A stretch of DNA of 31,184 nt. Origin: Candidatus Micrarchaeia archaeon (GTDB lineage: Archaea > Micrarchaeota > Micrarchaeia > CAILAH01). The notes beneath the pieces were generated by a model. That model had not been told where the DNA came from. It saw only the letters and a program-made list of their open reading frames with translations, and made no database searches. Location: assembly GCA_038874595.1 (NCBI GenBank), contig JAVZCB010000003.1, positions 123,342 to 154,525 of the forward strand, given 5' to 3'. Both the position numbers and the translations under genes were made by a program. Shown here piece after piece: positions 4,024-25,471 of this stretch (positions within the stretch are counted from its first letter, which is position 1; every line of letters starts with the position of its first letter).

Positions 4024-5433
4024 ATGAATATAAGCAAGATTGGTAATTTTTCTGAGTGGTACCAGACAGTATTGTTTGAGGCCGGTATCGTTGATATTAG
4101 GTATCCCATAAAAGGTATGCCTGTATATCTCCCATGGGGGTTCCAGTCATTAGACCATATGTTTGCACTTCTTGAGAAATTATTAAATGAAACCGGGCAC
4201 GAGAAGATGCTATTCCCGGTGGCGATACCGGAGAGCACATTCTCAAAAGAGACTGAGCACATTAAAGGGTTTGAGGATGAAGTGCTCTGGGTAACGCACG
4301 GCGGCCTCACACCGCTGGAGGAACGGTTGGTGCTCCGCCCTACTTCTGAGACTGCAATGTACCCGATGTTTGCGTTATGGGCGCGCTCGCACGCAGACCT
4401 CCCAATCAAGATATACCAGACAACCTCGGTTTACAGGCACGAGACGAAGGCCACAAGGCCTTTAATGCGCGGGCGCGAGGTATACTGGAACGAGGCGCAC
4501 ACTTCACACGCCACGTTTGAGGATGCAGAGCGCAACGTTGAAGATGCGATTCGAATTTACACGGAGTTTTACAAGAAGTTATGTATCCCATTTCTTGTAA
4601 TAAAGCGCCCTGAGTTTGATAAGTTTGCAGGTGCAGTATATACGTATGCATTTGATACGGTAATGCCGGATGGCCGGACTTTACAGATAGCCACGGCGCA
4701 CAATTTAGGTGACAATTTCGCAAAAGCGTACAATGTTAAATACTCCACGGAGACAGGCGAGCAGAGGTATGCATACCAGACCTCGTATGGTATAAGCATG
4801 CGCGCGCTTGCAGCTGTTATAAGCGTGCACGGTGATGAGCGCGGGCTCAAGCTGCCTTTTGATATTGCGCCTATCCAGATAGTTTTTGTACCGATTTATT
4901 CAAAGGATAACAATGCATTGGTCGATTCAAAACTCAAGCCAGTATACGAATCGCTCCGCACGCTGTACAGGTGCAGGTATGACGATTCAGATAAGCGTCC
5001 CGGTGATAAGTATTACTACTGGGAGCTGAAAGGTGTACCGTTAAGGGTTGAGGCTGGGATGCGCGACCTCTCGGAGAGTAAAGTTACAGTGGTTGACAGG
5101 AACGGCATAAAAAGGCAGGTTCCTGTAAGCAAGCTAATCGATGAGTTGCCAAAGATAATAGAAGAGTACCATAAGAAGCTGTACGCGGATGCGAAGGCAT
5201 TCTTTGATAGTAACCAACACAGTGCAAACACCGTGAAAGAGCTCAGGGAGATGATGGATGAGCACCGCGGTATGATTCGTGTAGGCTGGTGCGGCAGTAT
5301 AGAATGCGCAGAGGAATTGGACAAGCTCGAAGTTGGCAAAATCCTCGGCTATGAGAAAGGGAACAGCAAAAAGCGCAAATGCATCATCTGCGGTCGGGAC
5401 GGCGATGAGGTAATAATGTCAAAGGCCTACTGA
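4024..5433 (+). CDS. proS: Prolyl-tRNA synthetase (archaeal/eukaryotic type)
   Basis: LRPTSET, YRHETKATRPLMRGREVYWNEAHT, QTSYGIS, Zn-binding Cys residues and C-terminal KAY. Confidence 0.98.
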   Translation: MNISKIGNFSEWYQTVLFEAGIVDIRYPIKGMPVYLPWGFQSLDHMFALLEKLLNETGHEKMLFPVAIPESTFSKETEHIKGFEDEVLWVTHGGLTPLEERLVLRPTSETAMYPMFALWARSHADLPIKIYQTTSVYRHETKATRPLMRGREVYWNEAHTSHATFEDAERNVEDAIRIYTEFYKKLCIPFLVIKRPEFDKFAGAVYTYAFDTVMPDGRTLQIATAHNLGDNFAKAYNVKYSTETGEQRYAYQTSYGISMRALAAVISVHGDERGLKLPFDIAPIQIVFVPIYSKDNNALVDSKLKPVYESLRTLYRCRYDDSDKRPGDKYYYWELKGVPLRVEAGMRDLSESKVTVVDRNGIKRQVPVSKLIDELPKIIEEYHKKLYADAKAFFDSNQHSANTVKELREMMDEHRGMIRVGWCGSIECAEELDKLEVGKILGYEKGNSKKRKCIICGRDGDEVIMSKAY

Positions 5434-5583
5434 TTATGATATGAGAAGTAGCAGGATTACTGCAAACTCAGGCAAGCCGGACAATTCAAGGCCTACTGAT
5501 TATGGTATGAGTGTAACTGCACGGCCACGCGTGGCCTGATGCCGAGCTGCTAAGAGGCCTACCGATTATGGTATGAGTGTAAC
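5422..5583 (+). repeat. CRISPR-like mini-array: 3 x 30-bp repeat with 2 unique 36-bp spacers; first repeat contains the proS stop codon
   Basis: Repeats at 5422, 5488 and 5554 (exact 66-bp period), consensus AAGGCCTACTGATTATGGTATGAGTGTAAC. Spacers 5452-5487 and 5518-5553 are unrelated to each other. Confidence 0.85.
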
Positions 5584-5625
5584 AGGTCCCAAGCCAAGTG
5601 CTTTTTTATGTAATTTTGAAAAGAG

Positions 5626-5904
5626 CGCCCCCACTGGGATTTGAACCCAGCCCTCAGCCTTTCCTTTACCCTCCATATCTCAGGGGGTTAGGTGTAGACC
5701 ACACGAGGGACAATCGTTTGGCAAAGCCAAACGATGCGCCATTCGCAAGTGCGAATGTGCGAGGGGGATGTGCCCCCTTCCATCAGTGCTACACCCCCTC
5801 CATATTTCAGGGGGTTAGGTGTAGACCACACGAGGGAAGGGGGATGTGCCCCCTTCCATCAGTGACCGCAGGGCCGCATACTATCCAGGCTATACTATGG
5901 GGGC
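5626..5904 (-). tRNA. tRNA-Arg(GCG) with ~205-nt anticodon-loop intron (approx. 5661-5865)
   Basis: Acceptor stem GCCCCCA/TGGGGGC plus G73; D arm with A20 (Arg identity element); anticodon arm CGGCC-CT-GCG-G|A-GGCTG; T arm CTGGG-TTCAAAT-CCCAG. Confidence 0.85.
5669..5864. repeat. Internal duplication inside the tRNA-Arg intron (A-X-B-A-B)
   Basis: A (42 bp) at 5669 and 5796; B (27 bp) at 5762 and 5838. X (5711-5761) is a 51-nt insert holding two perfect hairpins. Confidence 0.9.
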
Positions 5905-5914
5905 CTGACAGTGA

Positions 5915-23123: not shown

Positions 23124-24419
23124 ATGAGGAGCCATTACATTTCCGATGCGGCCCGGCTTGAGGACGGGGCAGAGGTAACCCTTGGCGGCTGGCTGCATGA
23201 GATACGTGACATTAAGAAAATCGTATTCGCAATTTTAAGGGATAAGACGGGATTTATACAGATAACTGCAAAAAGGGGCGAAGTCCCAGATACAGTAGTT
23301 GATATGCTTGTACAGCCCAAGGAAACAGTTGTGGTAGTTAAAGGCAGGATTGCGCGCGGGAAAGGCGCTAAGGCCGGTGTTGAGCTAATACCATCACATA
23401 TCGAAGTTTTAGGGAAAGTGTATGGTAAGGTGCCATTTGACATTGCCGAAAAGGATAAATTGCCAGATTTGGATGTGCGCCTTGATAACAGGCACGTTGA
23501 CTTGCGCAGGCCTGAAGTGCAGGCGATATTCAGGGTGCGTGCAACTGTGCAGCAGGCGTTCCGCGAGTACCTGATTTCCGAGGGGTTTGATGAGATTGTT
23601 CCCACAGCTATTGTGGGTGCTGCAACGGAAGGCGGTGCTGAGCTGTTCCCCATAGTGTACTTTAACAGGGAGGCGTTTCTTGCGCAGTCACCGCAGCTCT
23701 ATAAGCAGATGGCAGTTATAGGTGGGATGGATAAGGTGTTTATGCAGTGCCTAGTTTACCGTGCAGAGCCGCACTCGACAACCACACATCTCAACGAGGC
23801 GTACCAAATGGATATAGAGATGGGGTTTGCTGATGATAATGATGTGATGGATGTTGAGGAGGAAGTGCTGAAACACATATTAAAATCTGTGTCTGAGAAG
23901 AGGCGTGCCGAATTGGAGCTGCTCAAAGCAGAGGTTAAAGTACCATCATCCATCCCTAGGTTTACATACTCACAGCTGGTTGATAAGCTGCGTGCCAACG
24001 GTGAGAAAATCGAATGGGGTGATGATTTCAGTAGGGCGCATGAGAAGATGCTCGGTGAGCTCGTTGGCAGCGAGGCATATTTCATAACCAAGTGGCCGAC
24101 CCGGCTGCGCGCATTTTACTCAATGCCTTCAAGTGATAATGTTGAGGTATGCAATGCGTTTGACCTAATATATAGGGGGCTTGAAATCTCTTCAGGTGCA
24201 CAGCGTATCCACGACCCCGAGCTGCTCGTACAGCAGATACGAAGCAGGGGGATGAACCCGGACAACTTTGACTTTTATGTGCGGGCATTCCGTGCAGGTG
24301 CACCGCCTCACGCGGGGTGGAGCATAGGCGCTGAGCGGCTCACAATGAAGATATGCGGCCTTGACAACATCAGGGAGGCAACACTATTCCCACGCGATAT
24401 GAACAGGATATTCCCATAA
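23124..24419 (+). CDS. aspS: Aspartyl-tRNA synthetase (archaeal type)
   Basis: RLDNRHVDLR, ATEGGAELF, AQSPQLYKQ, EISSGAQRIHD, GAPPHAG, FPRD. Confidence 0.96.
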   Translation: MRSHYISDAARLEDGAEVTLGGWLHEIRDIKKIVFAILRDKTGFIQITAKRGEVPDTVVDMLVQPKETVVVVKGRIARGKGAKAGVELIPSHIEVLGKVYGKVPFDIAEKDKLPDLDVRLDNRHVDLRRPEVQAIFRVRATVQQAFREYLISEGFDEIVPTAIVGAATEGGAELFPIVYFNREAFLAQSPQLYKQMAVIGGMDKVFMQCLVYRAEPHSTTTHLNEAYQMDIEMGFADDNDVMDVEEEVLKHILKSVSEKRRAELELLKAEVKVPSSIPRFTYSQLVDKLRANGEKIEWGDDFSRAHEKMLGELVGSEAYFITKWPTRLRAFYSMPSSDNVEVCNAFDLIYRGLEISSGAQRIHDPELLVQQIRSRGMNPDNFDFYVRAFRAGAPPHAGWSIGAERLTMKICGLDNIREATLFPRDMNRIFP

Positions 24420-24471
24420 GTTTTATGCGTTTCTTATAACCTTTTTATAGTTTGTCCCGTATCCTTTACTC

Positions 24472-25212
24472 ATGACAGGAATAAACCTTGTATTGTTTGA
24501 TAAGAAGCCTAAATACAGCGGTTATACGCTTATTGAAGGGTTCCCGGGGTATGGGCTGGTCGGCACGATAGCTGTTAATTTTCTGGTTGAGAAGTTCAAT
24601 ATGGAGCTTATTGGTTATGCGGAATCACCTCTTTTCCCACCAATCGTTGCGATTCACGATACAGTCCCTCTCCCACCGTTGAGGATTTACAAATCCGACA
24701 AGTATAAGCTGCTCATCGTAATGTCAGAGTTTGTAATGTCAATGAAAGCGGTGCACGCAATGGCAGATGTGATTTATGATTGGTGCCAGAAGAATAACGT
24801 GCGCAGGATAATATCACTTGGCGGCATTTCAATCTCCGGTAAGCAGGATGAGGTGTTTGGGATTACATCCGACCCAAAAGAGGTTAAGATGTTTTATAAG
24901 TATGGCATACTCCCTATCAAGGAGGGCGCAACCACAGGCATAAATGCGTTGCTGTTACAGAAGGCTGCAATGGGCGGTAAAGTCCCGGTGATATCTTTCC
25001 TTGCAGAAGCAAAGCCGGACTATGTTGACCCGCTCGGTGCTGCAATGGTGCTTACATCCCTATCAGATTATCTTGGGATACAGATTGATACAACAGAGCT
25101 TGTAAAAGAGGCAATGATTATTGAATCAAAGCTCAGGAAGAATTTAGAGGCAGTGAAAAAGGCCGAAACGACGTTTAAGGATACTGCATCAACAGGCGGG
25201 ATGTATGCATAA
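24472..25212 (+). CDS. Proteasome assembly chaperone (PAC2 family)
   Basis: EGFPGYGLVGTIA, PPLRIY, ISLGG, DPLGAA; C-terminal HbYX-like motif MYA. Confidence 0.92.
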   Translation: MTGINLVLFDKKPKYSGYTLIEGFPGYGLVGTIAVNFLVEKFNMELIGYAESPLFPPIVAIHDTVPLPPLRIYKSDKYKLLIVMSEFVMSMKAVHAMADVIYDWCQKNNVRRIISLGGISISGKQDEVFGITSDPKEVKMFYKYGILPIKEGATTGINALLLQKAAMGGKVPVISFLAEAKPDYVDPLGAAMVLTSLSDYLGIQIDTTELVKEAMIIESKLRKNLEAVKKAETTFKDTASTGGMYA

Positions 25213-25471
25213 TCCGGATGTGCCCGTGCAATAGATTAGCTTATATACACATACACATATGATGATGTATGCATAATCCTGGATATGCCTGTGCAATAGA
25301 TTAGCTTATATGCACATACACATATGATGATGTATGCATAATCCTGGACATGCCTGTGCAATAGATTAACTTATATGCACATACACATATGATGATGTAT
25401 GCATAATCCTGGACATGCCTGTGCAATAGATTAACTTATATGCACATACACGTATCGGAATGCATGCATAA
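25200..25471 (+). repeat. 64-65-bp tandem array (4 units plus terminal 12-bp copy) starting at the PAC2 stop codon
   Basis: Units begin GATGTATGCATAATCC at 25200, 25264, 25329 and 25394; closing ATGCATGCATAA at 25460; a few substitutions between units. Confidence 0.95.

What the first reader, a model, noticed from the sequence alone, without database searches (positions are those of the whole stretch)
5422..25471. Stop-codon-anchored repeat/insert arrays at several unrelated housekeeping genes: a candidate unknown gene-end duplication and insertion process
Seen: four unrelated genes (proS, thrC, PAC2, thpR) each have the sequence spanning their own stop codon copied downstream. At proS and thrC the copies (28-30 bp) alternate with unique 35-38 bp spacers. 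At PAC2 a ~12-bp stop-codon copy flanks a ~52-bp insert that was then amplified. At thpR 125 bp is duplicated. Each repeat derives from the local gene end and is unrelated to the others. Known: Cas1-Cas2 integration duplicates a ~30-bp repeat around a ~35-bp insert, and site-specific integrases regenerate gene 3' ends. No cas, integrase or RT gene is in this window. Inference: a trans-acting activity (relaxed Cas1/casposase-like integrase, or a repair route with templated insertion) builds the arrays. It either targets gene ends, or events survive only there because the ORF stays intact.
Basis: partly seen in the sequence, partly recalled or inferred. Interest (0 to 1): 0.9.

Follow-up and report, generated by a model that had tools for sequence, protein, structure and literature searches.

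The report
Misplaced CRISPR spacers at gene ends
The mini-arrays behind several housekeeping genes of this tiny hot-spring archaeon are most likely scars left when its own CRISPR spacer-inserting enzyme pasted ~36-base pieces of the cell's own chromosome at wrong addresses; such scars survive mainly where they leave genes intact, which is at gene ends.

Summary
The repeats are real and present in independent assemblies. They are not one unknown process. The genome (Ca. Micrarchaeota MAG) has a type I-B operon cut off inside cas4 and a true CRISPR array (31-nt repeat, period 66-71); cas1-cas2 probably lie in the gap between. Genome-wide, 16 non-tRNA repeat-spacer-repeat loci have period 63-75. 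Five spacers are copies of distant own-genome genes: proS spacer 2 matches a phosphoesterase gene 37/37, with no junction microhomology. The three best-matching sources are preceded by TTA, TTG and probably TTC. This is off-target Cas1-Cas2 integration ('neo-CRISPR', Nivala 2018). proS is well supported; thrC and PAC2 fit by geometry only (PAC2 later amplified, 4 vs 7 units between strains); thpR is a plain 125-bp tandem duplication. Twelve of 16 loci span a stop codon: more than uniform chance, but not more than survival predicts once promoter-disrupting sites are excluded. Weak points: cas1 not read directly, PAM not confirmed independently, targets as a set do not resemble the repeat. Earlier scan notes report similar scars in other genomes.

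The parts
4024..5433 (+). proS (prolyl-tRNA synthetase); its stop codon lies in repeat copy 1
   Evidence: Pfam
5423..5452 (+). proS repeat copy 1 (original target, 3' end decayed, 6 mismatches to copy 2)
5453..5488 (+). proS spacer 1, 36 nt; 28/36 match to a large surface-protein gene at C3:100847-100882 (E about 0.001, 5 of 8 changes are transitions); older, weaker case
5489..5517 (+). proS repeat copy 2; its last 17 nt match the last 17 nt of the canonical CRISPR repeat at 13 positions
5518..5554 (+). proS spacer 2, 37 nt; exact copy of C2:195733-195769 (minus strand) inside a metallophosphoesterase gene, source preceded by TTA
5555..5583 (+). proS repeat copy 3 (1 mismatch to copy 2; identical in the sister strain)
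6645..6879 (.). thrC array: four 28-35 nt copies with three unrelated spacers; copy at 6845-6879 holds the stop (6854-6856); no source found for the spacers
6854..7954 (-).
9442..9963 (+). thpR-like 2H phosphoesterase
9844..10093 (+). exact 2 x 125 bp tandem duplication across the thpR stop, no insert; not a spacer integration
24472..25212 (+). PAC2 family gene
25180..25471 (+). PAC2 array: decayed gene-end copy plus insert, 65-bp unit amplified in tandem (4 units here, 7 in the sister strain, none in the sister species)

Best explanation
The repeat-spacer-repeat units (proS, thrC, PAC2 and 13 more loci in the genome) are fossils of off-target spacer integration by the host's type I-B Cas4-Cas1-Cas2 complex. 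The complex cuts a 34-38 bp prespacer, often from the cell's own chromosome next to a probable TTN PAM (self origin shown for 5 spacers; PAM inferred), and integrates it at a non-CRISPR site with staggered attacks about 30 bp apart, duplicating the target (geometry shown; enzyme inferred). A scar can be hit again, giving 3-4 copy arrays (proS, thrC). Because the local repeats are unlike the Cas6 substrate, the self spacers should not become guide RNAs and escape the autoimmunity that purges them from the true array (inferred). In a genome that is 91% coding, hits inside genes or between promoter and start codon are lost, so survivors cluster on stop codons (sufficient statistically, mechanism inferred). 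A separate, general tendency to tandem duplication amplifies some units (PAC2, aIF-1A end) and made the thpR duplication.
For: Type I-B operon cas6-cas8-cas7-cas5-cas3-cas4 at the end of contig C1, cut inside cas4 (the cas8 gene is placed by position only); canonical array at the end of C6, period 66-71, spacers 35-40. A contig whose Cas4 is 90% identical carries cas4-cas1-cas2-leader and the identical 31-nt repeat. In the probable source run an 1854-nt contig continues 1541 nt beyond the C1 end, equal to the 1511 nt to the first repeat in that homologous locus plus 30. Non-coding repeat periods peak at 63-72 (25 of 75 hits). Five of 25 spacers match distant own-genome genes at E<=0.001 against 0.4% of shuffles; an unbiased intergenic-versus-coding search ranks three of them on top. 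Sources lie inside ordinary ORFs, four of five conserved in the sister species. Junction microhomology 0-1 nt; source flanks TTA, TTG, TTC(+-1) for the three best matches (TT background 8.8%). TTA, TTG, TTC and TTN are listed type I-B PAMs (PMC8482600). proS target matches the canonical repeat's 3' half 13/17 (1.7e-5 per genomic position). Orthologous sites in the sister species are single-copy. No convincing self match for the 13 canonical spacers (best 16 nt). Archaeal Cas1-Cas2 makes full-site integrations at non-CRISPR sites 30-31 bp apart in vitro (PMC6698737); type I-B duplication length shifts to 29-33 bp on altered repeats (PMC4872114).
Against: cas1 and cas2 are not in the assembly; the bridging contig has ten times the depth and 5 differences in 313 nt, so it is mostly another organism's copy. 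The PAM of this system could not be fixed independently. The two oldest self spacers have no TTN flank. Across 23 loci the targets are no more like the canonical repeat than random gene ends (p=0.87 whole repeat, 0.06 junction). Duplication lengths range about 26-39 nt, wider than reported. Twenty of 25 inserts, including all thrC and PAC2 ones, have no source. A relative with a complete, 79% identical Cas1 system shows no scar in 400 kb, so the load is lineage-specific and unexplained.
Confidence: 0.82

Rival explanations
1. Template-switch repair (MMBIR/FoSTeS-like): the polymerase leaves the template, copies about 36 nt from a distant site and returns upstream, duplicating the target.
For: The genome is rich in other duplications (thpR 125 bp, C2 118 bp, tRNA-intron modules); inserts are self-derived; targets as a set do not resemble the CRISPR repeat; no NucS found.
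Against: 0-1 nt in-register homology at 10 junctions; narrow size class equal to the resident CRISPR unit; TTN flanks; repeated use of one target with new inserts; MutS present.
Confidence: 0.07
2. Same enzyme, but it actively prefers gene 3' ends (transcription-termination or histone-positioned sites that mimic a leader-repeat junction).
For: 12 of 16 loci span a stop codon against 25-34% expected if all gene-sparing sites were equal (P 3e-5 to 1e-3). A histone gene is present and histones steer integration in Pyrococcus (PMC13748974).
Against: If sites at starts and within 50 nt upstream are also counted as lethal, 41-70% is expected, and P rises to 0.16-0.44 when long gene-free gaps are discounted. 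Orientation relative to the gene is mixed (proS: gene on the leader side; C5 8022: gene on the far side). Duplications of other sizes, here and in relatives, also sit on stops. A copy inside a gene is held by selection and stays detectable longer.
Confidence: 0.1
3. Old tandem duplications of gene tails (about 66 bp) whose non-coding part decayed, mimicking spacers.
For: Such a relic was proposed for another locus of this genome (e1-1533750); C4:9044 spacer resembles its upstream flank (p=0.003).
Against: Repeats 28/29-29/30 identical beside spacers with 16-38% identity to either flank and none to each other; five spacers have distant sources.
Confidence: 0.03

Closest known systems
Neo-CRISPR arrays from non-canonical Cas1-Cas2 spacer integration (Nivala, Shipman and Church 2018, doi 10.1038/s41564-017-0097-z; paper not held, read through 10.1101/148544 and PMC11788318)
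   Same: Spacer-size insert with a repeat-length duplication of a non-CRISPR genomic target; can be expanded further.
   Different: There: E. coli type I-E with overexpressed proteins and circumstantial natural cases in two species. Here: natural, fixed, type I-B with Cas4, DPANN archaeon, about 16 loci in 0.92 Mb, targets mostly unlike the repeat, confined to gene ends, some units later amplified as VNTRs.
Pyrococcus furiosus Cas1-Cas2 non-CRISPR full-site integration (PMC6698737)
   Same: Paired attacks 30-31 bp apart at off-target sites with only scattered repeat-like bases.
   Different: In vitro on plasmids; no heritable genomic record.
Haloarcula hispanica type I-B repeat duplication rules (PMC4872114)
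   Same: Same subtype; leader-distal cut measured from a mid-repeat motif; aberrant duplication sizes on altered repeats. The proS repeat keeps the equivalent motif (4 of 5) 8 nt from its end.
   Different: Engineered repeats in a true array; range 29-33 bp, narrower than here.
Slipped-strand tandem duplication / VNTR
   Same: Explains thpR (2 x 125), the PAC2 unit number (4 vs 7) and coding 21/63-bp repeats.
   Different: Cannot bring in a distant 36-nt insert.

Membership tests
Neo-CRISPR (off-target Cas1-Cas2 integration) | Target duplication of about one repeat length | tested here: met
   26-36 nt matched cores at most loci vs 31-nt canonical repeat; PAC2 only weakly; thpR not
Neo-CRISPR (off-target Cas1-Cas2 integration) | Insert of canonical spacer length, unrelated to flanks | tested here: met
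   sourced inserts 34-38 nt vs 34-40 nt in 142 canonical spacers of this repeat family
Neo-CRISPR (off-target Cas1-Cas2 integration) | Insert copied from a distant protospacer without junction homology | tested here: met
   5 of 25 inserts
Neo-CRISPR (off-target Cas1-Cas2 integration) | Protospacer flanked by the system's PAM | tested here: inconclusive
   TTA, TTG, TTC(+-1) in 3 of 5; the system's PAM is not known independently
Neo-CRISPR (off-target Cas1-Cas2 integration) | Target resembles leader-repeat of the resident array | tested here: inconclusive
   proS yes (13/17); not for the set of 23 (p 0.87 and 0.06)
Neo-CRISPR (off-target Cas1-Cas2 integration) | Cognate cas1-cas2 in the genome | tested here: inconclusive
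   absent from assembly, inferred in the C1-C6 gap
Functional CRISPR array (type I-B) | Repeat identical or near-identical to the Cas6 substrate, with the conserved 3' handle | tested here: not met
   no near match (up to 9 mismatches) to the canonical repeat outside C6; best 11-16 of 31
Functional CRISPR array (type I-B) | Transcribed and processed to crRNA | not testable with these tools
   no RNA run on record among holders
Casposon | Casposase gene, terminal inverted repeats, 14-15 bp target duplication | tested here: not met
   no Cas1-family hit; duplications about 30 bp around 36 bp inserts; size from PMC4872114
Site-specific integrative element (att duplication) | Tyrosine integrase and an element between attL and attR | tested here: not met
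   no PF00589 hit; inserts are 36-nt host gene pieces

The most novel reading that the evidence does not exclude
In this DPANN lineage a shared or horizontally acquired type I-B adaptation module is poorly matched to host targeting factors and preferentially attacks gene 3' ends, acting as a standing mutator that lengthens 3' UTRs, rewrites C-termini and seeds VNTRs in a reduced genome; the read-through self spacers might act on their source genes.
Probability: 0.12. Interest if true: 0.8.

Novelty: new variant of a known kind. Interest (0 to 1): 0.5.

Why it matters
How often off-target spacer integration happens in nature was called unclear (10.1101/148544). This genome holds about 16 fixed scars, one with an exact self source. 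It suggests that self-acquisition by a type I-B system is common and is hidden in true arrays by autoimmunity, that new arrays can start and grow at unrelated sequences, and that an immune integrase adds DNA to a streamlined archaeal genome. The scars also give a way to read the PAM of an uncultured system without viruses. It removes the need for an unknown gene-end machine.

Tried and rejected
Viral and metagenome scans with 4 ectopic spacers, 2 canonical spacers and the canonical repeat: no match; phage collection: none. 142 canonical spacers against all held DNA: no convincing protospacer, so no independent PAM (96). Exact look-up of Cas3 and Cas7: not on record. Set-wide likeness of targets to the repeat: not significant. 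A conspecific contig lacks the C5:7925 unit (118 bp), but the junction is a hybrid of two copies and the spacer is already diverged, so deletion or graph collapse is as likely as an empty site; not used as evidence. G010 could not be fetched. A 12-nt overlap between the aIF-1A insert and a canonical spacer is treated as chance. Gene calls are from my own ORF and codon model, not a standard annotation; the locus list was curated by eye. Nivala 2018 itself could not be read.
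Full report
Source and context. The window is C3:123342-154525 of a 918-kb, 93.5% complete MAG. A cluster mate of the PAC2 protein is named Ca. Micrarchaeota and the DNA occurs in hot-spring metagenomes.

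Observation. All four structures exist. A second assembly, about 99.8% identical, has the same proS, thrC and thpR structures, and a contig from another run has the thrC array; the PAC2 unit has 7 copies there against 4 here. The sister species G002 has single-copy gene ends at proS, thrC, thpR, PAC2 and several other loci, so the arrays are gains in this lineage. thpR differs from the rest: an exact 125-bp tandem copy without insert.

Genome-wide pattern. Non-coding direct repeats peak at period 63-72 (25 of 75 hits, not all independent; about 0.5 hit per shuffled genome). Setting aside tRNA-linked repeats, 16 loci have repeat-insert-repeat form with period 63-75. Inserts are unrelated to their flanks and to each other, which rejects decayed tandem units for most. 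G002 has one such locus in 607 kb; samples of G001, G006, G007 and G013 show no such peak.

A resident CRISPR system. The Cas1 search was empty, but contig C6 ends in a true array with a 31-nt repeat and period 66-71, and contig C1 ends in a type I-B operon broken inside cas4. A public contig with a 90% identical Cas4 continues cas1-cas2-leader-array with the identical repeat. In the likely source run a contig runs 1541 nt past the C1 end; in the homologous locus the distance to the first repeat is 1511 nt, and 30 more is the overlap expected for 31-mer graphs. That contig has tenfold depth, so the module is shared with a more abundant organism, which would explain the assembly break. The presence of cas1-cas2 in this genome is therefore inferred, not read. 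No RT or tyrosine integrase was found.

Inserts come from the cell's own genes. proS spacer 2 (5518-5554) is a 37/37 copy of part of a metallophosphoesterase gene on C2; the inserts at C1:28537, C5:7925 and C5:7778 match 31/33, 31/35 and 31/38 to other ordinary genes; proS spacer 1 matches a surface-protein gene weakly. Shuffled inserts reach this level in 0.4% of trials. An independent search of all intergenic DNA against coding DNA puts three of them first. The sources sit in frame in ordinary genes, four of five conserved in the sister species, which gives the direction of copying. Homology stops at the insert ends (0-1 nt), as expected of an integrase and not of template switching. The sources of the three best matches are preceded by TTA, TTG and, with a one-base boundary uncertainty, TTC; the two oldest are not. 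With a TT background of 8.8%, two exact cases have a chance of about 0.008 (my arithmetic). These are known type I-B PAMs (PMC8482600), but the PAM of this system could not be confirmed. The canonical spacers have no convincing self match, as expected if autoimmunity purges them there.

Target choice. The proS repeat matches the last 17 nt of the canonical repeat at 13 positions, on the side next to the PAM end of the spacer, the orientation of a normal array; such a match occurs at 1.7e-5 of positions, about 0.003 after allowing for some 200 places looked at, and the half was chosen after the fact. The set as a whole shows no likeness; decay may hide it, or the enzyme is lax. Pyrococcus Cas1-Cas2 integrates fully at non-CRISPR sites with only scattered conserved bases (PMC6698737), and type I-B duplication length varies on altered repeats (PMC4872114).

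Why stop codons. Twelve of 16 loci hold a stop codon in a repeat copy and two more lie within 16 nt of one. If every 31-nt site that spares a reading frame were equal, 25-34% would be expected (P 3e-5 to 1e-3). If sites that part a promoter from its start are also lost, 41-70% is expected, and P is 0.16-0.44 when long gene-free gaps are discounted, 0.006-0.06 when they are not. Other duplications (thpR, C2:54499, and 43-bp-period cases in G001 and G006) also straddle stops. Survival and longer detectability are thus sufficient; targeting remains open.

Per locus. proS: two integrations, spacer 2 the younger (copies 2 and 3 identical in the sister strain); strong. thrC: three integrations with slightly shifted ends; geometry only. 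PAC2: one old integration, then tandem amplification; weakest. thpR: slippage or unequal recombination, not Cas.

Novelty. The process is known (Nivala 2018, through 10.1101/148544, and PMC11788318), and earlier notes of this scan report such scars in other genomes, mostly bacterial type I-E and one Asgard type I-D (not checked by me). I found no paper describing it in DPANN, for type I-B in nature, or with this gene-end distribution, in a library that lacks most subscription journals. Verdict: a real and well-evidenced natural variant of a known process, not a new machine.

Noticed in passing
window 5625-5904 (minus): tRNA-Arg(GCG) missed by ARAGORN and Rfam because of a 205-nt intron (5661-5865) built of hairpin modules; 121 nt are identical to C1:42171-42291, and the sister strain's intron is 128 nt shorter. 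Suggests recent exchange of intron modules between tRNA genes.
   Followed up: partly
window 25526-25894: tRNA-Leu(TAG) with two introns: 49 nt in the D-loop and about 233 nt in the anticodon loop with 72-bp tandem units (one unit fewer in the sister strain; 90% like a unit at C1:202272).
   Followed up: partly
window 2342-2579 and 2758-2962: Coding 21/63-bp tandem repeats in two adjacent unannotated ORFs; the first protein is 253 aa here and 231 aa in the sister strain.
   Followed up: no
window 9030-9160: Decayed repeat of about 53 nt with period near 76 between pgi and thpR; may be another old scar or a decayed tandem.
   Followed up: partly
window 30168-31184: Intact ankyrin-repeat gene (99-bp units) running off the contig end.
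   Followed up: yes
L031:19688-20000 and L048: The cas4 3' half (and probably cas1-cas2-leader) is about 98% identical to that of a ten times more abundant organism in the same run, while the upstream cas3 of L048 does not align to this genome by blastn; L048 is binned as Nitrososphaeria (bin unverified). Possible recent swap of the adaptation module.
   Followed up: partly
G000 C2:191897-195769 and C4:90554-95901: Spacer sources come in two pairs, 3.8 kb and 5.3 kb apart; the C4 pair feeds two adjacent scars at C5:7778-8064. Could reflect acquisition hot spots or one burst; numbers too small to test.
   Followed up: no
G000 C3:56229-56315: The gene's stop codon lies inside the insert, so the integration appears to have rewritten the last codons.
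   Followed up: no
G000 C6:77030-77066 and 77770-77807: One spacer occurs twice in the canonical array.
   Followed up: no
L080:259-357 (G002): One repeat-insert-repeat unit (32 + 35 nt) in the sister species, which has a related CRISPR repeat; no source found.
   Followed up: partly
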